64,000 nt of DNA from Escherichia phage ECML-117. Shown piece after piece: positions 3,131-60,550 of the stretch. A model generated the notes under the pieces. It saw nothing but the letters and a program-made list of their open reading frames with translations, ran no database searches and was not told the origin of the DNA. The stretch is from sequence record JX128258; one strand, 5' to 3'. The position numbers and the translations under genes were made by a program. The first letter of the stretch is position 1. Every line of letters starts with the position of its first letter.

Positions 3131-3420
3131 GACTAAGCCTAGCGCAAATTCAAACATTGTACCGGATGGAAGACGGAACGCCATACATGCTGCGCGGCGA
3201 CCGCAAGAAGGCTTATGAAAAGCGGCCATCACTGTTTCACGACATCAATGCGCCATCAATCCCTGTCTTATTCCGGTTGGGCCTTGTTGATTGGGCGGCG
3301 CCAGGAGAGAAAGACCCGACGCGCTATTCATCCGTGGTGATGACAAAAGCAGGTCGCGCGGCATTAAAAGAGATTAAAGAAAATATGGCTGGAGGTAAAT
3401 ATTATGACATCAAATCTTAA
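3127..3420 (+). CDS. hypothetical protein (97 aa)
   Basis: In frame with track ORF 3112..3420; ATG at 3127 overlaps upstream stop. Confidence 0.4.
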   Translation: MRLSLAQIQTLYRMEDGTPYMLRGDRKKAYEKRPSLFHDINAPSIPVLFRLGLVDWAAPGEKDPTRYSSVVMTKAGRAALKEIKENMAGGKYYDIKS

Positions 3421-3586: not shown

Positions 3587-4099
3587 ATGAAAATCGAACA
3601 ACTCGAAGCAGTATTGGAAATGGCCGTAAAGGCAGGCGCAATCAAAAGCTATCGTCGCGAGAAGTCAGATAGCGATAAGGTGTTTTGTCGCAACTTCTAT
3701 ATCGTTGGCAACCTTAACGACCACTACACCATCGAGTGGTATACTAACGTGATGACCCTTAAGTCGCGCACCATGGAGCTTTGGTGTGATGACATCTGTC
3801 TTTCGAATACTCACCCAAGCTATGATGTCGCCCTGGCATTCTATCACGGAAGCCGTCAACCTGTCGCCCACATCGGTGAGAAGCATGAGCATCTTAAGGC
3901 ACGACCAGAGGAATCAATGGAAGGTTGGATTGAATGGGCTGGCGGAAAGAATCCGGTGCCTGGTAAGATGGTCGAATACAGGCTGCGCAATGAAGGGGAT
4001 AAAGTGCTGTCAAGACTCTCTGACCATCTGCACTGGGCCCATATAGGAGGACTAAAAGGTAGTGACATCATTGCTTATCGGGTCGTTAAGGAGGGATGA
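3587..4099 (+). CDS. hypothetical protein (170 aa)
   Basis: Track ORF; AGGAGAAG upstream; N-terminus resembles product of 2643..2948 (AVKAGAIKSY vs AVNCGAIKEF). Confidence 0.55.
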   Translation: MKIEQLEAVLEMAVKAGAIKSYRREKSDSDKVFCRNFYIVGNLNDHYTIEWYTNVMTLKSRTMELWCDDICLSNTHPSYDVALAFYHGSRQPVAHIGEKHEHLKARPEESMEGWIEWAGGKNPVPGKMVEYRLRNEGDKVLSRLSDHLHWAHIGGLKGSDIIAYRVVKEG

Positions 4100-4548
4100 T
4101 GGGTAAACGCCTTATCGCCGCTGGTTGGGCCATACCGAAGTGGGGTCATCGTGCGCATTACTTTGACGAAGGAGAAGTGCAAAGCCTTTGTGGTCGCGCA
4201 ACGTATTTCGGTGATGAGCGCGTCAGCGGCGATTATATCGACTCGCTTTTAGGCAAAGGTGATTGCAAGAAGTGTCAGAATATATTAAGGGATATTCTTA
4301 CGCAAAAAGGATTGCTTGAGCTTGATGAATCGGAAGAAGTAATTGAACTTAAGCTGGAAGCCAATCACCTTATTAATATGTTCAAGAACTATTACGCAAC
4401 TAATATGCGCTCAAAAATGAGCGAGGAAGTAATAGAAAAGGTGTTCACCTACAATCCGCTAAGGATGAATAAAACCAAATTGAAGAAGTTTAATATAATG
4501 TTAAGGAAAGAATTTAAAAGGCTAGGGGTGAAGAATTTTATATTTTAA
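4096..4548 (+). CDS. hypothetical protein (150 aa)
   Basis: Track ORF; start overlaps upstream stop. Confidence 0.5.
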   Translation: MMGKRLIAAGWAIPKWGHRAHYFDEGEVQSLCGRATYFGDERVSGDYIDSLLGKGDCKKCQNILRDILTQKGLLELDESEEVIELKLEANHLINMFKNYYATNMRSKMSEEVIEKVFTYNPLRMNKTKLKKFNIMLRKEFKRLGVKNFIF

Positions 4549-4566
4549 TAGTGATTAATGTTAAGA

Positions 4567-4590
4567 GGGCCGATTGGCCCTTTTTGTTTG
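4567..4590 (+). terminator. rho-independent terminator (GGGCC-gatt-GGCCC + T-tract)
   Basis: Hairpin and TTTTTGTTT read directly after the stop at 4548. Confidence 0.6.
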
Positions 4591-4874
4591 CCCGTGGGGT
4601 GTGAGTCTTTATTATCGGATAAAGCGATTGATTTGTGTAAATCTATTAGAGGATGGTGGGGAATGAGGATTGTGACGTGATTTGTGTGTCTTGAATATGT
4701 GTGCGGATTTGGAAGAATATTGTACTGTGGTGCTGTGGGATTGGAGAGGGAATCACTAGGTTTTGGGGCGTGTACCGTGGTGTGTGGGCCTGTAGGCTGC
4801 GCCGTCTCTGGGATTGCCGCCTGAAATTTAAAAGGAGATATAGTTAGCTGGCTAACCTTACGTATAGAATTTAA

Positions 4875-5162
4875 GCGTATAATGACGTAAGATTTGGACC
4901 TATCCGTAGTTCACTCCACACACTTCTATGGTGCGCCGCGACTGGGTTCAGTGGTACATCTTACGGATGATACGGATGATACGCGTCGCCGCTATACTTT
5001 ATACAACTTTGAAAAAAACAATTAACTCCATTTTGAATTAATTTAAATTAATTTTTTTCTACATCCTCATACTTATACTAAACTTATGTTTATACGTATT
5101 ATCCGTAAGATATAAGTAAAAACAAAGACTTGCGGCAATACGGATGATACGTCATGATACGC
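4875..5162. promoter_or_regulatory. iteron/AT-rich control element, copy A
   Basis: GCGTATAATGACGTA at 4875-4889; tandem 9-mers in CTTACGGATGATACGGATGATACGCGTCGCCGC at 4960-4992; AT-rich tract 4993-5100; inverted ATCCGTAAG at 5101; ACGGATGATACG at 5140-5151. Homologous to copy B at 20906-21180. Confidence 0.5.
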
Positions 5163-5389
5163 TTCAACCAGCCAGCAGCGGCTAAGTCATTGATTTGCAT
5201 AACAAGCGGCGAAAGGGATGGATTTCTTTTATACGTATCAAACAGTACACCACGCACCACGGTCCGCTATTCATTCAGCACTATGATTTGTGTACTTTTA
5301 CAGCCAATTTGAACATCAATCTGCACTTGAATATAATGTTCATTCATTGTATAATTCACACTATTAATTTGCACTATGGGATTTGCACT

Positions 5390-5863
5390 ATGAGTCAAGA
5401 TTATGTAGCAATGCCTGAAGACTTTGAAGACCCGCGATTTGCAGAGCATAATCAGGCATTATTCGATGAGTTCATTGACCTTGTTATTCAGGGCCATGAC
5501 ATGCGCGCAGCTTTTGCACTAGTATTTGGCATGGAGGTTGCGACCGATAACTACACTGGCCAGCGAATCCTCTGCACGCAACGCAATCCGTACTACAAGA
5601 TGCGCTACAAAAAGCGTATGGAAGAGATGCCATTGAAGGAATTGTGGAGTGTAAAGAGTTCCATCCACAATTTAGTGAAGCTTGTGCGTGATCCAGAAGT
5701 CGCAGCATCAGCCAAGCTTAATGCCATTCGTGAACTGAATATCATCTACGGCATCACGATGATTGATGAGAATGGCAATAGTAAAATGGGCCGTTCCATG
5801 GACGATTTCTACAAGGATTTTGGAGAGGCAGCCAAAGAGGGTGAGCAATTCTCCCGCCACTAG
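5390..5863 (+). CDS. hypothetical protein (157 aa)
   Basis: In frame with track ORF 5195..5863; ATG at 5390 after two TATAAT-like boxes; the start codon overlaps a copy of the ATTTGCACTAT motif. Confidence 0.5.
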   Translation: MSQDYVAMPEDFEDPRFAEHNQALFDEFIDLVIQGHDMRAAFALVFGMEVATDNYTGQRILCTQRNPYYKMRYKKRMEEMPLKELWSVKSSIHNLVKLVRDPEVAASAKLNAIRELNIIYGITMIDENGNSKMGRSMDDFYKDFGEAAKEGEQFSRH

Positions 5864-5882
5864 CCAATTTGCACTATAAAAC

Positions 5883-5916
5883 GGCCCTAGAACACATTTT
5901 CTCCACTTCTAGGGCC
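5883..5916. other. perfect 10-bp stem-loop (GGCCCTAGAA-N14-TTCTAGGGCC)
   Basis: Read directly; lies 20 nt after the stop at 5863; no clear T-tract on the plus strand. Confidence 0.5.
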
Positions 5917-6261
5917 ATCGGTAATACGACGGGGAAGGTTACAACCATAAACGCTTTAGAAAGTGTATTATTATAAGTCATCTTTTAGTCACTTTACGTA
6001 ACAATTTACGACCTTCCGCCGTCCAGTCGAACGACTCCACCAGCAGATTTGCACTATAACCTAAGACGATGCGCCCTTTCTCGTTATCGACCCGCCAACA
6101 AGTCTCGAATAGCATTCGATTTGCACTATTAACTATCGCCGCAACGCGCGTTGGGTAAGCGCAATTTGCACTATGGTCGTAAAGGGATAAGGTGCGACCA
6201 CTTCCGATGGACAACGTAGCGATGAGAATAAGCGTATTCATAAGCCACCAATTTGCACTAT

Positions 6262-6284
6262 GAAAAGCGACCCCGAAGGGCCGC
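6262..6284 (-). terminator. putative rho-independent terminator for minus-strand gene 6292..6918
   Basis: Minus-strand GCGGCCC-ttcg-GGGTCGC hairpin (one mismatch) followed by TTTT. Confidence 0.4.
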
Positions 6285-6291
6285 CATTCGA

Positions 6292-6918
6292 TTAGATAAT
6301 CTGGAATGTGTAGGACTTGTTGCCGAACTCAAAGGTCAAGCGTCCAGCTTCTTTAAGCTTCATGCGGAAGCGAATGTGCTTGCTATCCGGTAATCCCAGC
6401 GCGGCGAACGCTACGCGGACCGATTTGAACTCGCCTACACCTTCGACCATGACGCCGTTACGGGTGAGACGCTTTTGCGCCACTTCCTTGTTATCCCAAC
6501 TTTTTGCAATACCTTCGCTATTCGAACGGCGATGGGAAGGACTGGCAATTTTATCCGCGCCAACCGGAGCATCATTCAGGCCGCTTTTAACGAAGGCTTC
6601 ATATTCTTCGTCGGTCATCGCGTCGAGTTCTTCCTGGGTCGGCTCCGCTTTTTTAACGACCGCACGCGCTTTGTGCGTTTTTACATCGCTGGACACTTCC
6701 TCGCGCGGCTTCGCGTCTGGGATGGGCGATTCGTTGGACGGCTCATCGAGCGCGTTTAAGGACTCGATTAACGCGATGACGCGAGTCTCAGCGGTGCGAC
6801 GGTCCGCAAACTTCTTAATCGGTTTTGAGCCGGAGTTAGCGTTATAGAATGCAACGAGGTCGGCGGTCTTAGTTGCGATAACGTCGCCGCTAGTAGAGAA
6901 ACGATTCAAGCTAACCAT
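6292..6918 (-). CDS. hypothetical protein (208 aa) with acidic central linker
   Basis: Track ORF; AGGAG upstream on minus strand; antisense plus-strand ORFs are Ser-rich and low-complexity; CpG-rich composition. Confidence 0.6.
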   Translation of the reverse strand: MVSLNRFSTSGDVIATKTADLVAFYNANSGSKPIKKFADRRTAETRVIALIESLNALDEPSNESPIPDAKPREEVSSDVKTHKARAVVKKAEPTQEELDAMTDEEYEAFVKSGLNDAPVGADKIASPSHRRSNSEGIAKSWDNKEVAQKRLTRNGVMVEGVGEFKSVRVAFAALGLPDSKHIRFRMKLKEAGRLTFEFGNKSYTFQII

Positions 6919-6987
6919 AATAAACTCCTAGTTTGGGAGCGGCGTTAACGACCTATTCGCTAACTCATCCCGTCCCGATATGAGTAC

Positions 6988-7015
6988 ATTATAATATAGT
7001 GTAGAAAAAAGTAAA
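6988..7015 (-). promoter_or_regulatory. sigma70-like promoter (TTTACT-N16-TATAAT) for 6292..6918
   Basis: Minus-strand read GTGCTTTACT...TATAATGTACTCATATCGGGACGGGATGAGTTAGCGAATAGGTCG is homologous to the plus-strand module upstream of 7554. Confidence 0.45.
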
Positions 7016-7059
7016 GCACTTTTTCGATAAAAATGCGATAAATTATTTTATCTTTTTTC

Positions 7060-7087
7060 TTTACTTCTTCGTACACTCGCGTATACT
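7060..7087 (+). promoter_or_regulatory. sigma70-like promoter (TTTACT-N16-TATACT) for 7144..7446
   Basis: CTTTACTTCTTCGTACACT shared with promoter at 7458; followed by TGTTTATATCGAGACGGG leader. Confidence 0.45.
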
Positions 7088-7143
7088 TGTTTATATCGAG
7101 ACGGGCGATGGCCCTTCCTTCTACTAGCATCGGGAGCTTTATT

Positions 7144-7446
7144 ATGACTACTTTAATCTCTTCCATCCTTACTTACGACGAAGACCGTTTAACCGTTCGC
7201 TCTCTTATCGCCGCCGTTAACGCGGAACTAGAATCTAGCGCCATTAAGGTCCGCGCGGTCGCCTTCATCGGCCTTTCCTTCGACGATATGAAGTACGCCG
7301 AACGTAGCGCCATCCGCTTCGCGAAGACCGACGACGAAGCCGTTACCCTTATCGAGACGGTTACGCCGCGCGGCGAAGCGTTAATTATCGTCGAGTATAT
7401 CGACGTAGAAGGCGATAAATCTTATAAACATTTTATCGCAGAATGA
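7144..7446 (+). CDS. small acidic protein (100 aa)
   Basis: In frame with track ORF 7087..7446; ATG at 7144 after GGGAG; codon usage rich in CpG, almost no CTG/CAG. Confidence 0.55.
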   Translation: MTTLISSILTYDEDRLTVRSLIAAVNAELESSAIKVRAVAFIGLSFDDMKYAERSAIRFAKTDDEAVTLIETVTPRGEALIIVEYIDVEGDKSYKHFIAE

Positions 7447-7457
7447 CGAAAAAGTGC

Positions 7458-7486
7458 TTTACTTCTTCGTACACTAAGACTATAAT
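7458..7486 (+). promoter_or_regulatory. sigma70-like promoter (TTTACT-N17-TATAAT) for 7554..7844
   Basis: Hexamers read directly; duplicated module of 7060-7087. Confidence 0.5.
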
Positions 7487-7508
7487 GTTTTATATCGAGA
7501 GGGGATGA

Positions 7509-7529
7509 GGTAGCGAATAGGTCGCTACC
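7509..7529 (+). other. leader stem-loop (GGTAGCGA-atagg-TCGCTACC) in 5' UTR
   Basis: 8-bp perfect stem between promoter and RBS; a related imperfect copy lies in the minus-strand leader of 6292..6918. Confidence 0.45.
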
Positions 7530-7553
7530 CTCCCGACTAACTAGGAGAATATT

Positions 7554-7844
7554 ATGATTACTTTAGCCGCTATCCGTTCCGCTCGCGTCGAAACTTCCGA
7601 AAACTCTAACGTATTTGGCGAAACCTTAGAGAGCGTTTATCTCTCTAACGTAGACGCAACTATCGAGTCTATTTATGAGCCGATCAACTTTCTCGACCTT
7701 TACAAGTATCGCGACGAGGACATCGTATCCTACCGCGTAACGATTAACGGCTTCGTTTATACGATCACCGAAATCGGCGGCGAATATATAGCTGTACCGC
7801 AACTCGGCGGCGAAGTAACTTACTTTAAAATCGTAAGCCTTTAA
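7554..7844 (+). CDS. small acidic protein (96 aa)
   Basis: Track ORF; AGGAGAA upstream; same unusual codon usage as 7144..7446; similar size and N-terminus (MITLAAI vs MTTLISSI). Confidence 0.6.
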   Translation: MITLAAIRSARVETSENSNVFGETLESVYLSNVDATIESIYEPINFLDLYKYRDEDIVSYRVTINGFVYTITEIGGEYIAVPQLGGEVTYFKIVSL

Positions 7845-7855
7845 GGAGAAGAAAG

Positions 7856-8065
7856 ATGACTAATATGAATAACTCTCTTAACGCGCGCGCCCATCGCACC
7901 GCCGTAATCGATATGTTTCGCGAGCTTAAGGAATTATGCGATAATATGAACGCGATGTTATCCATCGGCGGCTGGGGATACGAAGAAGAAGTTAAATACG
8001 CGGTTATGCGTCGCCGTCGCGATAACGTCCTTGGACAAATTAAACGCGCCGGATTATTCCTTTAA
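7856..8065 (+). CDS. hypothetical protein (69 aa)
   Basis: Track ORF; AAGGAGAAGAAAG upstream; same codon usage; followed by terminator. Confidence 0.55.
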   Translation: MTNMNNSLNARAHRTAVIDMFRELKELCDNMNAMLSIGGWGYEEEVKYAVMRRRRDNVLGQIKRAGLFL

Positions 8066-8091
8066 TTATAATCACCCACCGTTACTAATAG

Positions 8092-8116
8092 GCCGCGCTT
8101 AGTCGCGGCTTTTCTT
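8092..8116 (+). terminator. rho-independent terminator (GCCGCG-cttagt-CGCGGC + TTTTCTT)
   Basis: Read directly after the stop at 8065. Confidence 0.6.
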
Positions 8117-8586
8117 CGTCCCTATCTCAATGCGCTTCTCCGCGAAAATTCCTTTATCCTTCCCTTCGTCGTCGCATAATCTTCGTCGAGATGCTCCTTA
8201 GTTCGCATAACGGGTATTACGTTAAATGGAGAACATCGCGTAAGTCCTTGTTTTATATAGACACCTATATCGGACCGTTAAGGCGGGTCGCGTAAGTCGT
8301 TGTTTTATAAAGGCGCAAAACTTTCCCTTCGTTCCGAACTAAAACGAGAAATATGCGGACCCTTCGCCCGAAAATAGTACGCATGCGAAATTACCGACAT
8401 CTAGAATAATCCCCGCCGATATTATCCTACACGCAATCATTAGCCTTCGAATCATTATGCTTCATATTATTATGCATCGAATCATTCGCTTTCGAATTGT
8501 AACGCTGGAAACTGTAACGGCGATTGATTATTGCGTTCGTGTGGTTTTTATGGCATGGGTCTTTTGGTGCGTTTTGGTACTTGATG

Positions 8587-8709
8587 AAATTTGCAGTACA
8601 CTAATCAAAATACGACACATTTGGTCCACTAACTTTTCAAAGAAAAAGTCCTAGACAGTACCGTACTATTTTGTGCCCACAGTAAATTTGCAGTACACTC
8701 CTGCGCGGC
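8587..8709 (+). repeat. two copies of 16-bp motif AAATTTGCAGTACACT
   Basis: Exact copies at 8587-8602 and 8694-8709; shares the ATTTGCA core with the 11-bp array at 5367-6261. Confidence 0.7.
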
Positions 8710-13939: not shown

Positions 13940-14170
13940 TTAGTGAGAAGACACGACTAATGTGCCGCTTCCTTTCGCGAAAATCTCAACACCTGGCGGG
14001 ATTGTGACCGTGCCAACCACTGCGATTCCGATCAACTTGTCATCGGCTTTTTCTTCGAAACAGATCTCTGCGCCACCGCCGCGAACTTGAATAAGTGCGC
14101 CTGATACGTTTTCAGCAACAGAAAGAACGGAAGTGTAAGATGGAGTGAGTTGAATATTTACTAGGGCCAT
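13940..14170 (-). CDS. hypothetical protein (76 aa)
   Basis: Track ORF on minus strand. Confidence 0.4.
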   Translation of the reverse strand: MALVNIQLTPSYTSVLSVAENVSGALIQVRGGGAEICFEEKADDKLIGIAVVGTVTIPPGVEIFAKGSGTLVVSSH

Positions 14171-14288
14171 GATTTACTCCTGATAAAAAAATGGCCAGAA
14201 AGAATCTGGCCGAAAAGATCACCCTTTATCCACTACTAAGCTGGAATCATAATTTTACTTGATATAGCTGTCGCAAGCAAACTATAAT

Positions 14289-15749
14289 ATGAATAAAATA
14301 TTAACACATAATTGGAAAGTCATGTACCAGTTGAATCCTGCTTTAAGAGAAGTCTGGAAGACGAAAGCGCGATACAAAGTAATATACGGTGGTCGTGCAT
14401 CTTCCAAATCGCATGATGCCGCTGGTTTTGCTATTTATTTGGCGGCAAACTTTAAATTAAAATTCCTTTGCGTTCGACAATTCCAGAACAAGATTTCTGA
14501 ATCAGTATATACGCTATTAAAAGACAAAATAGAAATTTCTGATTTCAAAGATGAGTTCAACTTATTAAAGAACTCCATTGAACACAAAAGAACAAAATCT
14601 GAATTCTTATTTTACGGTATCGCACGCAATGTTGACGAAATCAAATCAACAGAAGGCGTTGATGTTCTTTGGCTTGAAGAAGCGCACGCACTTACTGAAG
14701 AGCAGTGGGACATCATTGAGCCGACAATTCGTAAGGAAGGGTCAGAAATATGGATCATATTTAACCCTGATGAAGAGGCTGATTTCGTCTACCAGAACTT
14801 TGTTATGCGACCGCCTAAAAATGCCATCGTTAAGAAGATTAACTGGCAGGACAATCCATTCTTGTCGCAAACAATGCTGGACGTTATCGCTGGCATGTAT
14901 GAGCGCGACCCGAAAAAGGCAGAACACGTTTATGGCGGAGTACCGAAGACAGGCGGCGACAAGTCGGTCATCAACCGTGCATTCGTCAAGGCCGCGCTAA
15001 ACCTCCACAAACACCCTACGTTGGGATGGAGCTTGTCAGGGTCTAACCGTATAGGCTTTGACGTGGCAGACGACGGCGACGACTTAAACGCCACAGCATT
15101 TGTCACGGGCAACGTATTGCGCGGCATCAAGACATGGGAAGGTCTGGAAGATGAATTGCTTAAGTCCGCAAGCGGAGTTTGGAAAGATGCATTAACATTC
15201 GGCGCATCAATTACCTATGACGCCATCGGTGTTGGTGCATTTGCTGGTTCAAAATTTGATGAGCTTAATGAGTATGCAATCCATGAAAATCCAACATTCC
15301 CAAGAATCGAATTTAATGCGTTCAACGCGCAAGGTGCTGTTGATGATCCTGATGACGTCTTCCTTGAGTTACCACACGTTGAAATACTCAATAAAGACCA
15401 TTTCGCAAACATAAAAGCGCAAAAATGGACTGAGATTGCCGAACGATTCAGGAAGACATATGAGTATGCAACAGGGCAGGCCGTATACCCGACTGATGAG
15501 CTGATTTCCATCGACACAGACGGCATTCCAGAACTTGGGATTCCTGCTTGGTCTGCGGAAGAAATTGAGACATTTCTTTTTGAGATGTCAGCGCCGCGCA
15601 AAGACACGTCTGTGCTTGGTAAGTTTAAAGTTGAATCGAAAAAGGATATGGCAAAGCGTGGAGTCAAATCGCCTAACAAAGCGGACGCAGCAATCATGGC
15701 GTTGATGAAACCAATTGTTGCAGCATCCGGCTTCTTCTCTAACCTTTAA
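14289..15749 (+). CDS. terL: terminase large subunit
   Basis: 486 aa; Walker A-like GGRASSKS, LWLEEAH Walker B-like segment, C-terminal nuclease-like region. TTGATA-N18-TATAAT abuts the annotated ATG, so the true start may be the internal Met at 14322. Confidence 0.8.
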   Translation: MNKILTHNWKVMYQLNPALREVWKTKARYKVIYGGRASSKSHDAAGFAIYLAANFKLKFLCVRQFQNKISESVYTLLKDKIEISDFKDEFNLLKNSIEHKRTKSEFLFYGIARNVDEIKSTEGVDVLWLEEAHALTEEQWDIIEPTIRKEGSEIWIIFNPDEEADFVYQNFVMRPPKNAIVKKINWQDNPFLSQTMLDVIAGMYERDPKKAEHVYGGVPKTGGDKSVINRAFVKAALNLHKHPTLGWSLSGSNRIGFDVADDGDDLNATAFVTGNVLRGIKTWEGLEDELLKSASGVWKDALTFGASITYDAIGVGAFAGSKFDELNEYAIHENPTFPRIEFNAFNAQGAVDDPDDVFLELPHVEILNKDHFANIKAQKWTEIAERFRKTYEYATGQAVYPTDELISIDTDGIPELGIPAWSAEEIETFLFEMSAPRKDTSVLGKFKVESKKDMAKRGVKSPNKADAAIMALMKPIVAASGFFSNL

Positions 15750-16405: not shown

Positions 16406-16567
16406 TTCAATCTCCTTTCGTTTGGTTAACTAAAATATAACTCAAAATGATGCAAAAGCAAAATATTTTATGAACTATTTATGATCACCATACATATCAT
16501 TTGCTTACAAACACATGAATATTTATAATATAGATTGATTCCCTTTCACTGTCAGGTGGCGTTAACA

Positions 16568-20734: not shown

Positions 20735-20872
20735 ATGCAAAAGATTATCCAGTCACGTTACGTTAAAGTGCGAAATATTAATTGCAACTCTTTGCTTTCT
20801 TGGAAATGGGCTGTTTACGACTCGATGCTGATTGGCGTTTTAGTTGCTGGAGTGCTTTTTAATATTCACTGA
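20735..20872 (+). CDS. small membrane protein (45 aa), not in ORF track
   Basis: ATG at 20735 after AAGAGGAAG; translation MQKIIQSRYVKVRNINCNSLLSWKWAVYDSMLIGVLVAGVLFNIH with one hydrophobic segment. Confidence 0.35.
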   Translation: MQKIIQSRYVKVRNINCNSLLSWKWAVYDSMLIGVLVAGVLFNIH

Positions 20873-20905: not shown

Positions 20906-21180
20906 GCGTATAATGACGTATCATCCGTATCAAGTAAGTAGTTGTTTTCAAAAGAATCTTACGGATGATACGGATGATACGCGTTGCCGCGATACTTTAT
21001 AGGAATTCAAATAAATTAATTTAAAATTATATATCTAATTTAATTTTATTTTTTTATAAACTCTTATATATGAAAAGTATCCGTATCATCCGTATCATCC
21101 GTAGCACACCAGTGATAGCGCGGCTTATACACCGATACGGATAAAAAATACGCCTCATCTTATCCGTATCATCCGTATCA
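20906..21180. promoter_or_regulatory. iteron/AT-rich control element, copy B
   Basis: GCGTATAATGACGTA at 20906-20920; CTTACGGATGATACGGATGATACGCGTTGCCGC at 20958-20990; AT-rich tract 21001-21075; inverted triple ATCCGTATCATCCGTATCATCCGTA at 21079-21103; inverted double at 21162-21180. Confidence 0.55.
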
Positions 21181-21289
21181 CACTAATTAAGGCGCGGCTA
21201 TATCGGCTGTTATACATATTCAAACCATAATTATTGTTTGCCTAAGTTTTTTTCATTAGATATAATACACAATACTTATTTGAGGGTGG

Positions 21290-22708
21290 ATGCGAATGCA
21301 AACGGCACGCGAAATTGACAAAAATGGATTCTTGACGATTGTGGGTTGTCCCATTTCGTCATTTGGCATTTTTGATTATTCTGCAGGTCAGGTTGGACTT
21401 GATGGTGATCCGAATCGCATCGTAAAAGTTTATCGCCCAGAGTCAGCGGTGAAAGACCCCGAAGCGATAGATTCATTCAAAAATATCCCTTTCATCGACA
21501 ATCACGAAATGCTTTCTGGATTCGAAGGTGATGAGGATAACACAGCACCCGAAGAGTATGGCGTTGATGGCGTTCTAACTGGCAATGTTTATTATGACAA
21601 GCCATGGATGCGCGGCGACCTTAAAGTTTTTAGCCGTCGTCTGAAGAAGGCCATCGACTCTGGAAAGGTTGACTTGTCTTTGGGCTATGACTGTGAATTC
21701 ATCATACAGTCTGGAGAGTTTGACGGGCAGCCGTATGAAGTGGTACAGACAACTCTTCGCGGCAACCACATTGCTCTCGTGGACGTTGGTCGAGTACCAG
21801 GTGCACGGGTGCTGGATGGTCGTTGCTTTGACCATCTTTGTTTGACGACTGTAACACCATCCAACGAGGATTTAGACATGCCAAAACCGTTAAAAGGTAA
21901 AGCGCGTGATAATGCTGTTGAACAGCTGAAATCACTGATCCCTGCGCTCGAACAATTTCTGAATGAAGAGAGCACCGAAGCTGCTCATCAGGACGAAGTT
22001 GAAGTGAAAGCAGAAGAGAAGGATTCAACCGAAGAACGTGAAGAAGTGATGGTTGATCCAGAAGTCAAAGCAGAAGCTGAAGAGACTCCAGAAGGTGAAG
22101 AGAAGTTTGAATTTGAAACTGAATCTCACGCTGGCGGCGAGCTTCCGCAACTGATCAGCCAAATCGAAGCACTTATTGCAAAACTGAAAGGTGGCGCGGT
22201 AGGTGATGAAGAAGAAGTTGAAGCCGAAGTCAAAGACGAAGAAGTTGAAGTCAAGGCTGAAGATGTATCACCTTGCGACAAAGCTGAAGATGTGGTTAGC
22301 GGCCTGCAAAACAGCAACGTAAAGGGGGCTTCGGTCGAAAAAGATGACAAACCGACAAAAGCGGCGAAAGCGTCGCCAGGTCCAGCAAAAGGGGAACACT
22401 CAATGGCATCTGATTCAGCAGTTGCTGCTTTCTACGCTGATTCTGCTCGTAAGAATAGCCTCTACCAGCGCCTGTCTAAAGTTGTTGGTGCCTTTGATCA
22501 TGCAACTATGGACTCCAAGTCCGTAGCGAAATATGGCGCTAAAAAGTTAGGCTTGAAGTGCGTTGATGGTGCTGAGTTTGACGTGGTGGATAATTATCTG
22601 CGCGGCGTTGAACACGGTCAAAAACAGCGTGTAGTCGCAAAACAAAAGGCCGCTGCGGATTCTGCAGCAACTGACGAAGCGTTTGAAGCTTGGTTGAAAG
22701 GGGAATAA
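21290..22708 (+). CDS. prohead scaffold/protease-like protein with acidic low-complexity centre
   Basis: 472 aa; Glu/Lys/Ala-rich acidic repeats (EVEVKAEE...); lies immediately upstream of the capsid gene. Confidence 0.55.
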   Translation: MRMQTAREIDKNGFLTIVGCPISSFGIFDYSAGQVGLDGDPNRIVKVYRPESAVKDPEAIDSFKNIPFIDNHEMLSGFEGDEDNTAPEEYGVDGVLTGNVYYDKPWMRGDLKVFSRRLKKAIDSGKVDLSLGYDCEFIIQSGEFDGQPYEVVQTTLRGNHIALVDVGRVPGARVLDGRCFDHLCLTTVTPSNEDLDMPKPLKGKARDNAVEQLKSLIPALEQFLNEESTEAAHQDEVEVKAEEKDSTEEREEVMVDPEVKAEAEETPEGEEKFEFETESHAGGELPQLISQIEALIAKLKGGAVGDEEEVEAEVKDEEVEVKAEDVSPCDKAEDVVSGLQNSNVKGASVEKDDKPTKAAKASPGPAKGEHSMASDSAVAAFYADSARKNSLYQRLSKVVGAFDHATMDSKSVAKYGAKKLGLKCVDGAEFDVVDNYLRGVEHGQKQRVVAKQKAAADSAATDEAFEAWLKGE

Positions 22709-22710
22709 AC

Positions 22711-23328
22711 ATGACTTTCCAAACTAGTGTAGGCCGTCAATATACAACTGGCTTTCCTGGCGACATCGTTCGCGACGGCCCACAGCGTGGGAAGCCAGGC
22801 CGAATTGCCAACGCTAACGAAGGCGCAAACGTAAACGCCATCAGCCGTGTGTTCGGTTTTAAGACTGACGTATCCTTAATGGGTACTGGTCAAACCAAAA
22901 CTTTGGGCGCGCAGGACTTTGAAGTTGAGCTGGGCGGCACTAACTACTACGGCATCCTCGGCAATAGCAAGCGTTACGCGCTGTATGGCAACTCTACTGG
23001 TCCTTTGGGTGCCAGCATGGTTCTGCCTCAATATAGCGAAGGCGAGTTCTATGATATGTGCACGGGCCTCGTAGTTGAAGTATTCAACCCAAGCACCAGT
23101 CCGCAGACGCTTAACTATGGCGACCTGCTTGCTTATGTACCTAAAGGCATTTCCAGCGGTAACAACCCGAACAACTTGCCTATTGGTGCAATTATCGCCT
23201 ATACTGGCTCATTGCCAACTGGCATGGTTGCCATCCCAGGCGGTATTGTGATTGACCCGACGACTATTGCCCTTTCCGGCCCAAGCGTCCAGTCTTCCAC
23301 TTATACCATTGTACAATTGACTCGTTAA
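22711..23328 (+). CDS. head structural protein (205 aa)
   Basis: In frame with track ORF 22690..23328; ATG at 22711 after GGGGAA; between scaffold and capsid genes. Confidence 0.45.
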   Translation: MTFQTSVGRQYTTGFPGDIVRDGPQRGKPGRIANANEGANVNAISRVFGFKTDVSLMGTGQTKTLGAQDFEVELGGTNYYGILGNSKRYALYGNSTGPLGASMVLPQYSEGEFYDMCTGLVVEVFNPSTSPQTLNYGDLLAYVPKGISSGNNPNNLPIGAIIAYTGSLPTGMVAIPGGIVIDPTTIALSGPSVQSSTYTIVQLTR

Positions 23329-23342
23329 TAGGCAGGTGAATA

Positions 23343-24482
23343 ATGACTCGCATTAGCCAAACACACTCTCGCCTCCCAGCGAGCAAGGTGCGCCCTTTTG
23401 ATATGCAATCCGTGACCGACGCGGCTGTTTCCCAGCTTGCGCGTATCGGTATTGTGTTTGATTCCGCGATTGTGCGTGATCAGATTGAGCACTTAAACCG
23501 TGCAGGCGCTTTCCGCGTAGGTGACGCCGCATTTACTGCGCCGCAAACCACGCCATCAATCCCGACCCCGCTGCAGTTCCTGCAACAGTGGCTGCCTGGC
23601 TTCGTCAAAATCATGACCGCTGCCCGTAAAATTGACGAGCTGGTTGGTATTGACACCGTTGGTCAGTGGGAAGATGCAGAAATCGTTCAGGGCATCGTTG
23701 AACCAGCTGGCACCGCAGTTGAATATGGTGATTTCACCTCTATTCCTCTGGCAAGCTGGAACGTGAACTTTGAACGCCGTTCCATCGTTCGCGGTGAAAT
23801 GGGCATGGCAGTCGGCATGCTGGAAGAAGGCCGCGCGTCTGCGATGCGTCTGAACTCTGCAGAGACCAAGCGCCAGCAGGCTGCTGTATCTCTGGAAATC
23901 ATGCGTAACGCAATCGGCTTCTATGGTTGGTATAACGGGAACAACCGCACGTTCGGCTTCCTGAATGATCCAAACCTGCCAGCGGCAATGACTTCAAACA
24001 CCACTTCCGGCTGGGCTACTGCGACCTTCCAACAGGTGACTGCAGACATCCGTTTGATGGTTCGTCAAATCCGTGTCAACTCTCAGGACCAGATTGATCC
24101 AGAGAAGGTTGATATGACTCTGGCGCTGCCGACCAACTCTATTGATTGGCTGTCAAACACCACCGACTTCGGTATTTCTGTACGTGACTGGATCACCCAG
24201 ACTTATCCGAAGATGAAGATCAAATCTGCACCGGAACTCAACGGCGCACTTGGCAGTGACCCGACTTTCCTGAACGTGGCATATCTGTACGCTGATCACA
24301 TCGATTCCTCAATTGATGGCTCAAGCGATGATGGTTCCGTATTCAGTCAGCTGGTCCAGACTAAGTTTATGACTCTGGGCGTTGAGAAACGCGCTAAGAG
24401 CTACGTTGAAGACTACGCAAACGCAACAGCAGGCGTTCTGCTCAAGCGTCCTTTCGCAGTCGTCCGTATGACTGGTATCTAA
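23343..24482 (+). CDS. major capsid protein
   Basis: 379 aa; follows scaffold; typical size and position; followed by stem-loop ATGGGGCG-N14-CGCCCCAT at 24508-24537. Confidence 0.65.
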
Positions 24483-24597
24483 TTGCTGTGATTACACAGT
24501 AAAACACATGGGGCGTGGTCGAAAGGCTTCGCCCCATATCAATAGACCTCAAGGGCTGTAGGGGCTTATCTGAGGCTTATATAAATAGGACTACAAA

Positions 24598-25062
24598 ATG
24601 CCAAAATACATCGTTTCAACTATGTCTATGTCAGTCAACTACACTTTCTATACGGAAGTGAAAGAAAACCCGAATGCAAAAGCTGGTTCAGGCGCTCTTC
24701 CAAATATTCGCAAACAGATTCTGATCAAGGGCGGTGCTGGTCTTACTTCGGCAACTTCCGGCTTTGGTGAAATGGCAAAAGGCGCTGATGGTGCACCTTT
24801 GTGGACTCCTGAAGGAATCGTCACCGTTGTAAGCGATGCTGATTTTGAACATTTAAAAGATCATCACGTATTCAAGCAGCACCTTGAAAAAGGTCTGGTT
24901 AAAGTGGTTAACCACGACATCGTTGGCAATCATAAAGCTGTCGCTAAAGAAGTGCGCGGCATGTCAGATGACCCGTTCGCACCTATGACGCGTGAGACGG
25001 CTGACAAGCGCATCAAGGTTAAATTGAGCGGCGAACAAGAAGATGATTTGTTCCGCGTTTAA
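24598..25062 (+). CDS. head-associated protein (154 aa)
   Basis: Track ORF; AGGACTACAAA upstream; position after capsid gene. Confidence 0.45.
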   Translation: MPKYIVSTMSMSVNYTFYTEVKENPNAKAGSGALPNIRKQILIKGGAGLTSATSGFGEMAKGADGAPLWTPEGIVTVVSDADFEHLKDHHVFKQHLEKGLVKVVNHDIVGNHKAVAKEVRGMSDDPFAPMTRETADKRIKVKLSGEQEDDLFRV

Positions 25063-25067
25063 ATAAG

Positions 25068-25532
25068 GTGAATGCCATGTCATTAGATTACGAAAAGTTC
25101 AGAATAAAATTTCCACAGTTTGCTGATCAGGTAAAATTCCCTGACACAACGCTTCAAGTATTCTATGACATGGCATGTGAATTTATTGAATCACAAGACA
25201 GTCCTTGTCGTGTTTTAAATGGCAGTAAATTGGAGCTGGCATTGGAATATATGACGGCTCATCTTTTATGCATAGCCACAGACCAACAGGTGTCTGTGTC
25301 TTCTGGTGACGGAGTTGAACAAGGCGGCTTCGTGACTGGTGCAACAATCGGTGACATCACCGTGAATAAGGTAGCGCCGCCTGCAAGTGATGGTTGGGAA
25401 TACTGGCTTTCAAGCACTCCTTATGGCATGGCGCTTTGGGCGCTTCTGCAAGCACTGGCTGTCGGCGGCTTGTCGTTTGGCGGTCTTCCAGAGCGCGAAG
25501 GATTTCGTAAAATTGGTGGGGTATTCTGGTGA
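25068..25532 (+). CDS. head-tail connector/completion protein candidate (154 aa)
   Basis: Track ORF; position in module. Confidence 0.4.
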   Translation: MNAMSLDYEKFRIKFPQFADQVKFPDTTLQVFYDMACEFIESQDSPCRVLNGSKLELALEYMTAHLLCIATDQQVSVSSGDGVEQGGFVTGATIGDITVNKVAPPASDGWEYWLSSTPYGMALWALLQALAVGGLSFGGLPEREGFRKIGGVFW

Positions 25533-25915
25533 GGATTCCTGGCGTAAACTTATATCGAGTTGCGACAAAGGTCATCGGTCGCCAACCGATTCAATATTAC
25601 ATGTACAAGGGGCGTACTCTTGATAAAATGCGCAACTACGTTACCACTTATGAAGAGCCAATCACCCTGCTTGCTTCGGTGCAGGCTGTGCTTCGAAATC
25701 AATACGTCGAGCTTGGATTAGAGCTTCAAAAGAACTATGTCAAAATCTGGGTGGACAAAGACATCGTTGACCTTGACCGCGACGCTTCCGGCGACTATTT
25801 TGTGTTTGGTGGGAAAACGTATAAAATGGAAGACGAAACGACATGGTTTGACCAAGATGGTTGGACGTCTTGCCTTGCCGTGGAAGTAAAACAAAGCTTT
25901 CCAGTGTCTACTTGA
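25529..25915 (+). CDS. head-tail joining protein candidate (128 aa)
   Basis: Track ORF; overlapping start and stop with neighbours. Confidence 0.4.
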   Translation: MRIPGVNLYRVATKVIGRQPIQYYMYKGRTLDKMRNYVTTYEEPITLLASVQAVLRNQYVELGLELQKNYVKIWVDKDIVDLDRDASGDYFVFGGKTYKMEDETTWFDQDGWTSCLAVEVKQSFPVST

Positions 25916-25916
25916 G

Positions 25917-43637: not shown

Positions 43638-43710
43638 TATAATTCACCTTTTGATTATGAATATTAATAGTATAGGCTTAAGGTTTTGAAAGTAAATACG
43701 CCGAAAGTAA

Positions 43711-46812: not shown

Positions 46813-46871
46813 TTGATGTTTTCCTATAGTATCAAGTTTCGTGGCAACCTGATTTCAAGATAAAGGTTAAA

Positions 46872-60419: not shown

Positions 60420-60522
60420 TTCAGGCGACCTTTGTTAGTGCGGAAATATTTTCTGATAGTATAATTGCAGATATAGTATAAAGCAAAGTAAATCGAAATT
60501 GTGAAATAAATGGTAAATATTG

Positions 60523-60550
60523 TTGACTTTGTATCACTCAATATTATACT
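60523..60550 (+). promoter_or_regulatory. sigma70-like promoter (TTGACT-N16-TATACT)
   Basis: Read directly in the divergent intergenic region upstream of 60580. Confidence 0.5.

What the first reader, a model, noticed from the sequence alone, without database searches (positions are those of the whole stretch)
4875..5162. Iteron plus AT-rich element A: candidate replication origin or regulatory hub
Tandem 9-bp units (GGATGATAC x2) in a 33-bp block, an AT-rich tract of about 100 bp, then inverted copies of the same unit. This is the classic iteron/DNA-unwinding-element architecture of replication origins. The block CTTACGGATGATACGGATGATACGCGTCGCCGC is repeated almost exactly 16 kb away in element B, and both copies are preceded by GCGTATAATGACGTA.
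Basis: seen in the sequence. Interest (0 to 1): 0.65.

Follow-up and report, generated by a model that had tools for sequence, protein, structure and literature searches.

The report
Phage DNA-packaging cut site, duplicated
The repeat-flanked AT-rich element is the place where this E. coli phage's DNA is cut to make the left end of the packaged genome, just upstream of the small-terminase gene, rather than a demonstrated replication origin; an ancient twin copy 16 kb away with the same lineage-specific repeats is still unexplained.

Summary
GGATGATAC occurs 9 times in 64 kb (0.33 expected), only at 4965-5150 (A) and 20918-21174 (B). The two AT-rich spacers are the two lowest-GC 100-nt stretches in the window.

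The window is a Wifcevirus (WFH/Mansfield-like E. coli myophage) with a ~3.5-kb direct terminal repeat (DTR). Four records open at the read-mapped left genome end, which is window 5029|5030. That is in the middle of A's spacer, about 5 nt from the dyad axis and 360 nt upstream of terS (E 9e-33 to the E217 small terminase, 7UXE).

The same two-site layout exists in Pantoea Kyle, Serratia MyoSmar, Pseudomonas Ab27 and an uncultured lineage: A upstream of terS and holding the mapped end, B upstream of the head protease. Each lineage has its own 9-bp-period unit, shared by its A and B.

Best reading: A is a pac-type terminase recognition and cleavage site (like SPP1 or P1 pac), with the units as binding repeats for a phage protein, probably TerS. 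B is a conserved uncut paralogue of unknown role. A replication-origin function is untested and not excluded, especially for B. No paper describing these repeats was found.

The parts
4793..4812 (+). First copy of the GCGCCG...CTGGG motif (TAGGCTGCGCCGTCTCTGGG)
   Evidence: Direct repeat D2. The pattern GCGCCG-N(2-6)-CTGG has 4 hits in the window, two of them here, against 0.63 expected.
4927..4946 (+). Second GCGCCG...CTGGG motif. It contains the 17-mer GGTGCGCCGCGACTGGG, which is identical in Serratia phage MyoSmar at the same relative position.
   Evidence: It resembles the CTGGG-core phage-specific promoter class of Pbunavirus 14-1 (PMC10914365). Whether it acts as a promoter here is not shown.
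4875..4889 (-). It forms an inverted pair with 5148-5167.
   Evidence: Inverted repeat I3: 20 nt, 90% complementary. Family TACGTCATGATACG. It is not conserved as TATAAT in the WFC lineage's A copy.
4961..4983 (+). Left array: 2.4 tandem 9-bp units (TTACGGATGATACGGATGATACG) within the 33-nt block 4960-4992 shared with B
   Evidence: The left edge (4958) is the mosaic breakpoint in 15 or more relatives.
4993..5091 (.). AT-rich spacer (GC 0.18) with an A7 tract (5011-5017) and a T7 tract (5051-5057) placed symmetrically
   Evidence: It is the second-lowest-GC 100-nt window in the 64 kb.
5029..5030 (.). Left physical end of virion DNA, which is the left boundary of the direct terminal repeat (...AATTAACTCC|ATTTTGAATT...)
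   Evidence: Position 1 of records Mansfield (PhageTerm), WFH, WFC and Ro157lw maps to window 5030 (PMC6753283). The core TTAACTCCATTTT is invariant in six relatives.
5092..5114 (-). Right inverted arm (degenerate unit, ATACGTATTATCCGTAAGATATA)
   Evidence: Inverted repeat I1: 23 nt, 87% complementary to 4955-4977, 114-nt spacer, dyad axis 5034.5.
5138..5163 (+). Further direct units (ATACGGATGATACG followed by TCATGATACGC)
   Evidence: Invariant in relatives.
5130..5262 (+). Conserved non-coding block right of the cut. It holds TTGCGGCAA, CAGCGGCTAA (also present in Kyle's A element) and CAGTACAC (5243).
   Evidence: CAGTACAC occurs only 3 times in the window, all within 250 nt of a DTR boundary.
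5309..5355 (+). Two overlapping sigma-70-like promoters for terS (TTGAAC-17-TATAAT and TTGAAT-17-TATAAT)
5390..5863 (+). terS, the small terminase subunit
   Evidence: E = 9e-33 to PDB 7UXE, the E217 small terminase. Annotated as terS in Mansfield.
5030..8564 (+). Direct terminal repeat, 3535 nt in this window
   Evidence: The last base of WFH and Mansfield position 3673 both map to window 8564. Korf 2019 reports about 3.7 kb.
8565..8699 (+). Right DTR-boundary region: |TGGTGCG..., then AAATTTGCAGTACACT twice (8587-8602 and 8684-8699). It contains no 9-bp units.
   Evidence: The boundary context is homologous in MyoSmar and Kyle.
20906..21180 (.). Element B, the paralogue: inverted units 20917-20932, left array 20960-20981, spacer 20982-21081 (GC 0.18; the lowest-GC 100-nt window, 20990-21089, is 0.15), inverted arrays 21079-21106 and 21156-21180
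   Evidence: Strong palindrome (-31.9 kcal/mol, z = -8.1). About 99% conserved including the spacer. No mapped end.
21238..21266 (+). Sigma-70-like promoter (TTGCCT-17-TATAAT) for the head maturation protease operon (ORF 21290-22708)

Best explanation
Element A is the packaging-initiation and terminus-generating site of a phage with direct terminal repeats. It is a pac-type site.

Proposed mechanism:
1. A phage-encoded, lineage-specific DNA-binding protein binds short 9-bp-period repeat arrays on both sides of a ~100-nt AT-rich spacer that bends and melts easily. The most likely protein is the ring-shaped small terminase TerS, encoded 360 nt downstream.
2. This complex presents the spacer to the large terminase, which cuts at 5029|5030.
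3. That cut creates the left genome end. Packaging then proceeds rightward through terS.
4. The right end is made about 3.5 kb past the next copy of A, at a separate conserved site (8564|8565) that lacks the units.

Element B is an ancient paralogue. It has the same repeats and a similar AT-rich core, but it lacks A's cut-site core (TTAACTCC|ATTTT) and A's flanking motifs. It is bound by the same protein but probably not cut, and its role is unresolved: an auxiliary or synapsis site, a regulatory site, or an origin.

Shown: the end position, TerS identity, two-site conservation, and unit co-variation.
Inferred: that the units are protein-binding sites, that the protein is TerS, and that B is not cut.
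For: 1. End position. Four GenBank records start at window 5030: Mansfield (explicitly opened at the PhageTerm DTR boundary), WFH, WFC and Ro157lw (PMC6753283; PMC6563267). The end is about 5 nt from the dyad axis of the 23-nt inverted arms. It lies between symmetric A7 and T7 tracts. A random position would fall in this 99-nt spacer with p of about 0.0015.

2. Independent replication in other genera.
- Kyle's exact 3603-bp DTR starts in the AT-rich centre of its own repeat-flanked element upstream of terS.
- MyoSmar's PhageTerm DTR boundary (3559|3560; PMC6753285) does the same.
- Pbunavirus Ab27's 'single fixed read termination' (PMC4482731) also does.

3. The downstream ORF is a genuine TerS: E = 9e-33 to 7UXE. 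That protein is an experimentally characterised decameric small terminase (PMC9611059).

4. Lineage-specific units shared by A and B within each genome. W is GGATGATAC, Kyle AATAWCCGR, MyoSmar TACTTTTCG, Ab27 GTAATTTGG, and the uncultured lineage TTAGTTGCGG/TTATTGCGG. There are essentially no cross-hits between genera. Three hosts are Enterobacterales, whose DnaA, IHF and Fis specificities are the same, yet the units differ.

5. Genetic linkage with terS. In 15 or more Wifcevirus records, homology to the window starts exactly at the outer edge of the left array (4958). The arrays, spacer and terS stay 93-100% conserved while the left flank is replaced. Pbunavirus shows the same pattern, with an invariant TerS N-terminus.

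6. Architecture. [quoted passage not shown] From memory, P1 pac is similar. TerL is SPP1-like per the Mansfield annotation.

7. Evidence that B is probably not cut. B has no mosaic breakpoint (27 of 28 records cover at least 80% of the query). It has no mapped end and lacks the AACTCC core.
Against: 1. No binding data exist. TerS is one candidate among all the phage's DNA-binding proteins.
2. A true pac site is expected to be unique. B carries the same arrays, better preserved than in A, and is conserved in five lineages. That is not predicted by a simple pac model.
3. The right DTR boundary has none of the units, so the units cannot be the only terminase signal. A different motif, CAGTACAC, marks both DTR boundary regions and is absent from B.
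4. [quoted passage not shown]
5. The dyad-symmetric, AT-cored layout equally fits bidirectional origins. The phage encodes a VapE/D5-type helicase whose gene is directly next to A in MyoSmar and Ab27.
6. The Pbunavirus comparison meant to falsify TerS was uninformative, because TerS and the right array are both invariant there.
7. Some record starts may have been copied from earlier records rather than determined independently. Mansfield, MyoSmar and Ab27 are documented as read-based. Kyle's record contains an exact duplicated DTR.
Confidence: 0.55

Rival explanations
1. A and B are replication origins, in a refined form. A phage initiator would bind the unit arrays on both sides of the AT-rich DNA-unwinding element and open it for bidirectional replication. 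Candidates are the VapE/D5-type SF3-like helicase or an unidentified protein. The layout would resemble herpesvirus oriS/oriL or SV40, with two copies per genome as in SPP1 oriL/oriR or P4 ori/crr. The terminase cut inside A would then reflect coupling of origin opening (or DTR duplication by strand displacement) to end formation. This would parallel T7, where origin-like promoter-plus-AT-rich elements sit at the genome ends and are needed for concatemer processing.
For: - The two lowest-GC stretches of the window are flanked by repeated protein-site-like units.
- There is strong dyad symmetry, especially in B (z = -8.1).
- Two copies exist per genome, conserved in five lineages.
- Both lie upstream of strong outward-facing sigma-70-like promoters, which would feed negative supercoils into the AT core.
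- A GCGCCG...CTGGG motif like the 14-1 phage-specific promoters points into the element (PMC10914365).
- The VapE-like helicase gene abuts A in MyoSmar and Ab27.
- B has no other obvious job.
- The T7, HSV, SPP1 and P4 parallels come from my own knowledge and were not tested here.
Against: - There is no replication data at all.
- The units are 9 bp, not helically phased, with only 2-3 per array. They are unlike 17-22-bp iterons.
- No Rep/O/DnaA-type initiator was found next to A in this phage. The VapE gene is about 9 kb away.
- Third-codon-position GC skew among co-oriented genes does not flip at B. A lies at a local maximum of cumulative skew, not a minimum.
- In Pbunavirus Banzai the skew minima lie in the replication module, not at the A or B analogues (PMC12390725). 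This is weak evidence, because transcription dominates skew.
- The exact 100-nt spacer sequence of B is conserved, not merely its AT content.
- The arrays co-inherit with terS, not with the replication genes.
Confidence: 0.25
2. The units are operators for a phage transcription factor that co-regulates the two adjacent sigma-70-type promoters (terS at 5309-5355, the protease-scaffold-capsid operon at 21238-21266). This would time or balance terminase and head production. The genome end falling in A would then be incidental or secondary.
For: - Both elements sit directly upstream of consensus-like host-type promoters of late genes, and this holds in all genera examined.
- A virulent phage that uses host RNA polymerase needs some way to delay such promoters.
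- In B the nearest array ends about 58 nt upstream of the -35 hexamer.
Against: - In A the nearest exact units are about 150 nt from the -35 hexamer, and the AT core is about 280 nt away.
- Other late operons, such as terL-portal at 14170-14289, have no units.
- A ~100-nt conserved AT-rich dyad core is not needed for an operator.
- The mapped end lies at the centre of the core in four genera, which is very unlikely to be incidental (p of about 0.0015 each).
Confidence: 0.1
3. A and B are copies of a selfish or structural intergenic repeat with no dedicated protein partner. Examples would be a MITE-like or promoter-stem-loop element, or a recombination hotspot homogenised by gene conversion.
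For: - A and B are paralogous over about 150-250 nt in each genome.
- Assemblies tend to break there.
- The left flank of A is recombinogenic.
Against: - There are exactly two copies, at the same syntenic positions, in five lineages whose genomes share little or no nucleotide identity.
- The unit sequence is replaced in each lineage while the architecture, the 9-bp period and the distances to the cut are kept.
- Purifying selection on B is very strong.
- No transposase or homing endonuclease is associated.
Confidence: 0.04

Closest known systems
SPP1 pac site (pacL-pacC-pacR), bound by the small terminase G1P
   Same: - The small terminase contacts repeated sites on both sides of the point where the large terminase cuts (PMC9611059).
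- The site lies just upstream of the terminase genes.
- The large terminase of this phage group is annotated as SPP1-like.
- From memory, the flanks contain bent, A-tract-rich DNA.
   Different: - SPP1 packages by headful without exact ends. Here both ends are exact and form a 3.5-kb DTR.
- The unit sequence, the 9-bp period and the ~100-nt AT-rich core are specific to this group.
- To my knowledge SPP1 has no second pac-like copy.
P1 pac site (hexanucleotide repeats flanking a central cleavage region); recalled from memory, not checked here
   Same: Short repeated elements are clustered on both sides of the cut region within a site of about 160 bp.
   Different: - P1's repeats carry Dam methylation sites and are read by PacA with IHF/HU.
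- P1 packages by headful.
- There is one copy per genome.
T7/T3 concatemer junction with origin-like elements phiOL/phiOR and a hairpin intermediate; recalled from memory
   Same: - The phage has exact direct terminal repeats.
- Promoter-plus-AT-rich, origin-like elements sit at the genome ends and are needed for concatemer processing.
- Inverted repeats near the junction are proposed to help duplicate the repeat.
- There is an additional internal origin at about 15% of the genome, compared with B at about 22%.
   Different: - The T7 repeat is 160 bp and depends on T7 RNA polymerase promoters. This phage has no RNA polymerase gene.
- Here the two cuts are 3.5 kb apart and have different sequence contexts.
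- T7 has no 9-bp unit arrays.
Two-site iteron origins (SPP1 oriL/oriR, P4 ori/crr) and dyad-symmetric origins (HSV oriS/oriL); recalled from memory
   Same: - The same short binding repeats plus an AT-rich region occur at two distant places in one genome.
- Binding sites in inverted orientation flank an AT-rich centre.
- A D5/VapE-type helicase is encoded by the phage.
   Different: - Nothing shows that replication starts here.
- A genome end maps in A.
- The units are shorter and fewer than iterons.
- The linkage is with terS, not with replication genes.
T4 gp16 'synapsis' of pac-like sequences in genes 16 and 19; recalled from memory
   Same: This is a precedent for a small terminase recognising two homologous sites a few kb apart that bracket terminase genes. 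Here A and B bracket terS, terL and portal.
   Different: - The T4 sites lie within coding sequence and are single short homologies.
- T4 has no unique ends.
- The model itself is not firmly established.

Membership tests
pac-type or terminus-generating terminase site | A physical end of virion DNA maps within the site | tested here: met
   Position 1 of Mansfield (PhageTerm), WFH, WFC and Ro157lw equals window 5030, inside the spacer (PMC6753283). The same holds in Kyle, MyoSmar and Ab27.
pac-type or terminus-generating terminase site | Located in or next to the small terminase gene | tested here: met
   The cut is 360 nt upstream of terS (5390-5863). TerS identity: E = 9e-33 to 7UXE.
pac-type or terminus-generating terminase site | Lineage-specific recognition sequence that co-evolves with the packaging proteins | tested here: met
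   There are five different units in five lineages, with no cross-hits. The arrays co-inherit with terS across mosaic breakpoints.
pac-type or terminus-generating terminase site | Specific binding by TerS and cleavage by TerL | not testable with these tools
   This needs EMSA, footprinting, ChIP and cleavage assays.
pac-type or terminus-generating terminase site | Unique in the genome | tested here: not met
   B (20906-21180) carries the same arrays and a similar core. However, it lacks A's cut-site core and has no mapped end.
Iteron-type replication origin | Three or more direct repeats of about 17-22 bp, helically phased, on one side of the AT-rich region | tested here: not met
   The units are 9 bp, with 2-3 tandem copies at 9-bp spacing, on both sides of the AT tract and in opposite orientations.
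Iteron-type replication origin | Adjacent AT-rich DNA-unwinding element | tested here: met
   GC is 0.18 in A and 0.15 in B. These are the lowest in the window.
Iteron-type replication origin | Cognate initiator gene in cis or adjacent | tested here: inconclusive
   No Rep/O/DnaA-like gene lies near A in this phage. The flanking genes are small hypotheticals and terS. A VapE-like helicase gene is adjacent in MyoSmar and Ab27 but about 9 kb away here.
Iteron-type replication origin | Replication initiates at the site | not testable with these tools
   Only proxies are available. There is no third-codon-position GC-skew flip at B, and A lies at a local cumulative-skew maximum. Both are weak.
Host DnaA-box cluster | Matches to TTATNCACA | tested here: not met
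   By eye, the unit TCATCCGTA matches TTATCCACA at 6 of 9 positions and fits only the relaxed consensus. The units differ completely between phages of related enterobacterial hosts.
Known structured RNA | Rfam covariance-model hit | tested here: not met
   There are 0 matches at gathering thresholds in the whole window.

The most novel reading that the evidence does not exclude
A and B form an obligatory two-site system conserved across Wifcevirus, Kylevirus, Myosmarvirus, Pbunavirus and uncultured relatives. One phage protein, plausibly the decameric TerS ring, reads 9-bp-period arrays at both sites.

Under this reading B is not a relic but a working partner. One option is a replication origin of the same design as the packaging site, meaning origin and pac share one recognition module. 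The other is a synapsis or checkpoint site that couples packaging initiation at A to the head-gene operon. Either way, this would be the first defined, naturally reprogrammed DNA code for this TerS family.
Probability: 0.25. Interest if true: 0.75.

Novelty: new variant of a known kind. Interest (0 to 1): 0.55.

Why it matters
How small terminases recognise viral DNA is still called unanswered in the field's own review (PMC9611059). The E217 TerS of this family has a solved decameric structure but no defined DNA target.

This analysis provides a candidate target with built-in controls. There are short 9-bp-period arrays at fixed distances on both sides of a base-resolved cut. They are rewritten in five related lineages while the architecture stays the same. 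That makes specificity-swap, footprinting and cryo-EM experiments straightforward.

It also matters practically. [quoted passage not shown] Wifceviruses are now available in the BASEL collection (Bas98-101). Knowing the packaging site informs predictions of transduction risk, genome rebooting and engineering.

The conserved twin element B is a real open question. If it is an origin or a packaging checkpoint, it would link replication or head expression to packaging through a shared DNA code.

Tried and rejected
1. **Host DnaA, IHF or Fis sites.** Rejected. The match to the DnaA box is poor, and the units differ between phages of related hosts.

2. **GCGTATAATGACGTA as a shared promoter.** Not supported. 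The scan finds no -35 hexamer, TATAAT is lost in the WFC lineage's A copy, and the sequence belongs to a variant-unit family.

3. **GCGCCG...CTGGG as a general phage promoter class in this genome.** It occurs only next to A, so its role stays open.

4. **B as a second physical end.**
   - The E215 record starts in B's centre, but it is a raw SPAdes contig (PMC5971607). A coverage drop in a 24-30% GC stretch of a 55% GC genome is the simpler cause.
   - The IMG/VR contig L011/L054 ends exactly at the edge of the 33-nt block shared by A and B, which is a typical assembly repeat break.
   - Neither case is evidence of cutting.

5. **Falsifying TerS through natural variation inside Pbunavirus.** Uninformative. 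TerS and the right array are both invariant, and only the left flank varies.

6. **Transcript-start data for Pbunavirus 14-1 at the A and B analogues.** The supplementary tables are not held and the main text gives no coordinates.

7. **The primary E217 terminase paper (PMC10026623).** Not held.

8. **Skew-based origin mapping.** There is no flip at B. The AT3-skew shift right of B is most simply codon usage in highly expressed head genes.

9. **Known RNA families.** None found.

10. **Small ORFs next to the elements as the DNA binder.** The 45-aa ORF before B (20735-20872) has a hydrophobic C-terminal stretch and looks membrane-anchored (read by eye). The 52-aa ORF in A has no Pfam hit.
Full report

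Yes.
- The 9-mer GGATGATAC occurs 9 times in the 64-kb window against 0.33 expected. No shuffle reaches 9. All copies lie in two places, 4965-5150 (A) and 20918-21174 (B).
- With one mismatch, only one further copy joins these clusters (5096-5104, minus strand). The remaining single-mismatch hits are scattered at background level.
- The 33-nt block is at 4960-4992, and its B copy at 20958-20990 is 32/33 identical. The 15-mer GCGTATAATGACGTA occurs only at 4875-4889 and 20906-20920.
- The two AT-rich spacers are the two lowest-GC 100-nt windows in the entire window (0.18 and 0.15; mean 0.46).
- Both elements are dyad-symmetric. A has 23-nt arms, 87% complementary, 114 nt apart. B has 22-nt arms, 100% complementary, 100 nt apart.
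- As single strands, B folds to -31.9 kcal/mol (z = -8.1) and A to -18.2 kcal/mol (z = -3.4).

- In A the only inverted unit is degenerate, and the exact downstream copy is direct.
- The 15-mer is best seen as an inverted variant unit of the TACGTCATGATACG family.

**2. What genome is this?**

The window is 97-99% identical to Wifcevirus myophages of E. coli and Shigella, such as WFH, FEC19, kaset and Mansfield. These phages are distant relatives of Serratia MyoSmar, Pantoea Kyle and the Pseudomonas PB1-like Pbunaviruses (PMC11990801).

Gene order, from the Bas101 and Mansfield annotations:
- Element A, then terS (+).
- Small genes and a tail fibre (-).
- terL, portal and head morphogenesis genes (+).
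- Element B, then the head protease, scaffold, capsid, tail genes and endolysin (+).
- The replication module (-).
- Primase and a long run of small early genes (+), ending at A.

**3. The key fact: a genome end lies inside A.**

[quoted passage not shown] WFH and WFC carry 'a terminal repeat of about 3.7 kb' (PMC6563267).

Position 1 of Mansfield, WFH, WFC and Ro157lw all map to window 5030...AATTAACTCC|ATTTTGAATT.... This position is:
- in the middle of A's AT-rich spacer;
- about 5 nt from the axis of the inverted arms (5034.5);
- between an A7 tract (5011-5017) and a T7 tract (5051-5057).

The other DTR boundary is at 8564|8565, so the DTR is 3535 nt here.

The ORF 360 nt downstream of the cut (5390-5863) is a small terminase. 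It matches PDB 7UXE, the decameric TerS of Pbunavirus E217, with E = 9e-33 (PMC9611059).

**4. The layout is ancient, and the unit changes together at A and B.**

| Lineage | End evidence | Unit (same at its A and B) |
|---|---|---|
| Window (Wifcevirus) | PhageTerm DTR; four records start at 5030 | GGATGATAC |
| Pantoea Kyle (TerS 44% identical) | Exact 3603-bp DTR; left end in the AT-rich centre of a 695-nt gap before terS | AATAWCCGR, e.g. GGAATAACCGGAATAACCAAAATAACC |
| Serratia MyoSmar | PhageTerm DTR of 3,559 bp (PMC6753285) | TACTTTTCG |
| Pseudomonas Ab27 | Record opened at a 'single fixed termination' of reads, with no DTR (PMC4482731) | GTAATTTGG, e.g. AGTAATTTGGTAATTTGGTAA |
| Uncultured (IMG/VR contig 3300022852_000007) | None | TACTTAGTTGCGG(T/A)(T/A)ATTGCGGTTGC |

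Further points:
- In Kyle, a 516-nt gap before the protease homologue is the B analogue. A and B also resemble each other across the centre, including the cut site.
- In Ab27, position 1 lies in the AT-rich centre of an element flanked by inverted CCTACTGCCGCGAGG / CCTCGCGGCA arms. A and B are paralogous over about 250 nt.
- Cross-searching each unit against the other genera's elements gives essentially nothing.
- The tandem period is 9 bp in every lineage. The left array sits 54-72 nt from the end in both the window and Kyle, and B has the same geometry.
- Other uncultured terS loci also have their own short repeats flanking an AT minimum upstream of terS.

Three of the hosts are Enterobacterales, which share DnaA, IHF and Fis specificities, yet the units are completely different.

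**5. Linkage and recombination.**

- In 15 or more Wifcevirus records, homology to the window begins at query position 459, which is window 4958. That is exactly the outer edge of the left array.
- The arrays, the spacer, about 360 nt of non-coding DNA and terS remain 93-100% identical.
- Three different left flanks exist, and each still carries unit-like copies.
- Pbunavirus shows the same pattern. The cut core, the right array and the TerS N-terminus are invariant, while the left flank is mosaic with degenerate units.
- B shows no such breakpoint: 27 of 28 records cover at least 80% of the 1-kb query. It is about 99% conserved through the whole spacer.

Two inferences follow. The arrays belong to the terS module. 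DNA ends are made at A, where ends stimulate recombination, but probably not at B.

**6. Other features.**

- Both elements lie in gaps between a terminator-like hairpin and a sigma-70-like promoter facing away from the element: 5309-5355 for terS and 21238-21266 for the protease.
- Left of A are two GCGCCG...CTGGG motifs (4793-4812 and 4927-4946). They are found nowhere else in a comparable context.
- The 17-mer GGTGCGCCGCGACTGGG is identical in MyoSmar at the same position, although the genomes share only 17% nucleotide identity (PMC6753285). It resembles the CTGGG-core promoters of Pbunavirus 14-1, which are inactive without phage factors (PMC10914365). In the uncultured lineage the motif precedes both A and B.
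- The right DTR boundary is homologous across genera (...GGGC...|TGGTGCG.TTT... then CAGTACACTAAT) and has none of the 9-bp units.
- CAGTACAC occurs three times in the window, all within 250 nt of a DTR boundary and none in B. Signals other than the units therefore distinguish real cut sites.

**7. Interpretation.**

The best-supported reading is that A is a pac-type terminase recognition and cleavage site:
- Repeated recognition elements on both sides of a bendable, meltable core are bound by a ring oligomer, most plausibly TerS.
- The large terminase cuts at 5029|5030.
- Packaging runs rightward and terminates at the separate right-boundary site one genome plus one DTR later.

[quoted passage not shown] From memory, it also matches P1 pac.

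My confidence by layer:

| Claim | Confidence |
|---|---|
| The end is made in A | ~0.95 |
| The units are binding sites for one phage protein shared by A and B | ~0.85 |
| That protein is TerS | ~0.5 |
| B is not cut | ~0.7 |

**8. Rivals.**

The origin reading is not excluded.
- In its favour: dyad-symmetric sites around an AT core are typical of bidirectional origins; two-copy origin systems exist (SPP1 oriL/oriR and P4 ori/crr, from memory); T7 has origin-like elements at its ends that are required for concatemer processing (from memory).
- Also in its favour: the phage encodes a VapE/D5-type helicase and a RepB-type primase, and the helicase gene abuts A in MyoSmar and Ab27.
- Against it: no replication evidence, units unlike iterons, no skew signal (PMC12390725), and linkage with terS.

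A dual role is possible, for example origin-like opening used to duplicate the DTR at the nick. A purely regulatory role and a selfish-repeat role are less likely, for the reasons given in the rival entries.

**9. Novelty.**

- The DTR and its boundary are already annotated in GenBank, and pac sites with flanking repeats are a known kind.
- I found no paper describing the unit arrays, their 9-bp period, the link between the arrays and the end, or the conserved twin B.
- I rate it a new variant of a known kind, with moderate-to-good interest. It offers a concrete, naturally reprogrammed candidate DNA target for a structurally solved TerS family, in phages used for therapy. The role of B is a real open question.

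Noticed in passing
window 8565-8699 (also Kyle 3604-3660; MyoSmar record ends): [quoted passage not shown] It is then followed by two copies of AAATTTGCAGTACACT (8587-8602 and 8684-8699). The boundary context and CAGTACACTAAT are conserved in MyoSmar and Kyle. CAGTACAC occurs only 3 times in the window, all within 250 nt of a DTR boundary. This is a candidate right-end (termination) signal.
   Followed up: partly
window 4793-4812 and 4927-4946; MyoSmar 3634-3650 and 3350-3375: The GCGCCG...CTGGG motif is confined to the left flank of A. The 17-mer GGTGCGCCGCGACTGGG is identical in MyoSmar, where a second, convergent copy lies on the other side of the cut. It resembles the CTGGG-core phage-specific promoters of Pbunavirus 14-1 (PMC10914365). 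Whether it is a promoter or another binding site is unknown.
   Followed up: partly
E215 MF490241 record start/end (L024/L025); IMG/VR contigs L011/L054, L062: Several assemblies break inside or at the edge of element B. E215 (a raw SPAdes contig) breaks in the AT-rich centre, about 14 nt from the position paralogous to the A end. A Wifcevirus-like metagenome contig ends exactly at the edge of the 33-nt block shared by A and B. These are probably coverage and repeat artefacts, but a minor physical end at B has not been excluded.
   Followed up: partly
window ~60.5-64 kb; Bas101 46261-47343 and 48653-50323; MyoSmar 3936-5711; Ab27 ORF93: The two genes annotated 'DNA primase' are different proteins. 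One is a RepB-type primase (PF16793). The other is a VapE-like/D5-type P-loop protein (PF05272), whose gene lies directly next to element A in MyoSmar and Ab27. In Wifcevirus and Kyle it is separated from A by 6-9 kb of small early genes.
   Followed up: partly
window 21290-26498: Third-codon-position AT skew turns clearly negative in genes right of B (down to -0.36 in 22711-23328 and -0.31 in the capsid gene), while genes left of B are near zero. GC3 skew shows no flip. This is most simply codon usage in highly expressed head genes, not replication.
   Followed up: no
window 16431-16530, 4465-4564, 6978-7077, 43597-43696, 60444-60543: These are the next-lowest-GC 100-nt windows (0.21-0.23). 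They lie at operon boundaries: before portal, at the end of the early operon, at the structural/replication switch, and at the divergent replication/early junction at about 60.5 kb. The last is a more conventional place to look for an origin.
   Followed up: no
Kyle MN038177 41268-41383: Three copies of Kyle's unit core AATAWCC lie within 115 nt inside the NTP-pyrophosphohydrolase gene. This is the only cluster outside Kyle's A and B. It could be chance or a third weak site.
   Followed up: no
WFC MK373777 DTR end; Ab27 LN610579 junction: Two record-level oddities:
- WFC's duplicated end implies a DTR of 3784 nt, ending about 97 nt beyond the boundary shared by WFH and Mansfield.
- Ab27's end/start junction (GCGAAAA|CGATTG) lacks one T that other Pbunaviruses have (GCGAAAATCGATTG). 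This suggests a 1-nt uncertainty or an overhang at the mapped end.
   Followed up: no
window 20735-20872: The small ORF just upstream of B encodes a 45-aa protein with a hydrophobic C-terminal stretch (MQKIIQSRYVKVRNINCNSLLSWKWAVYDSMLIGVLVAGVLFNIH). Small ORFs of 46-70 aa occupy the same position in Kyle, MyoSmar and Ab27.
   Followed up: no
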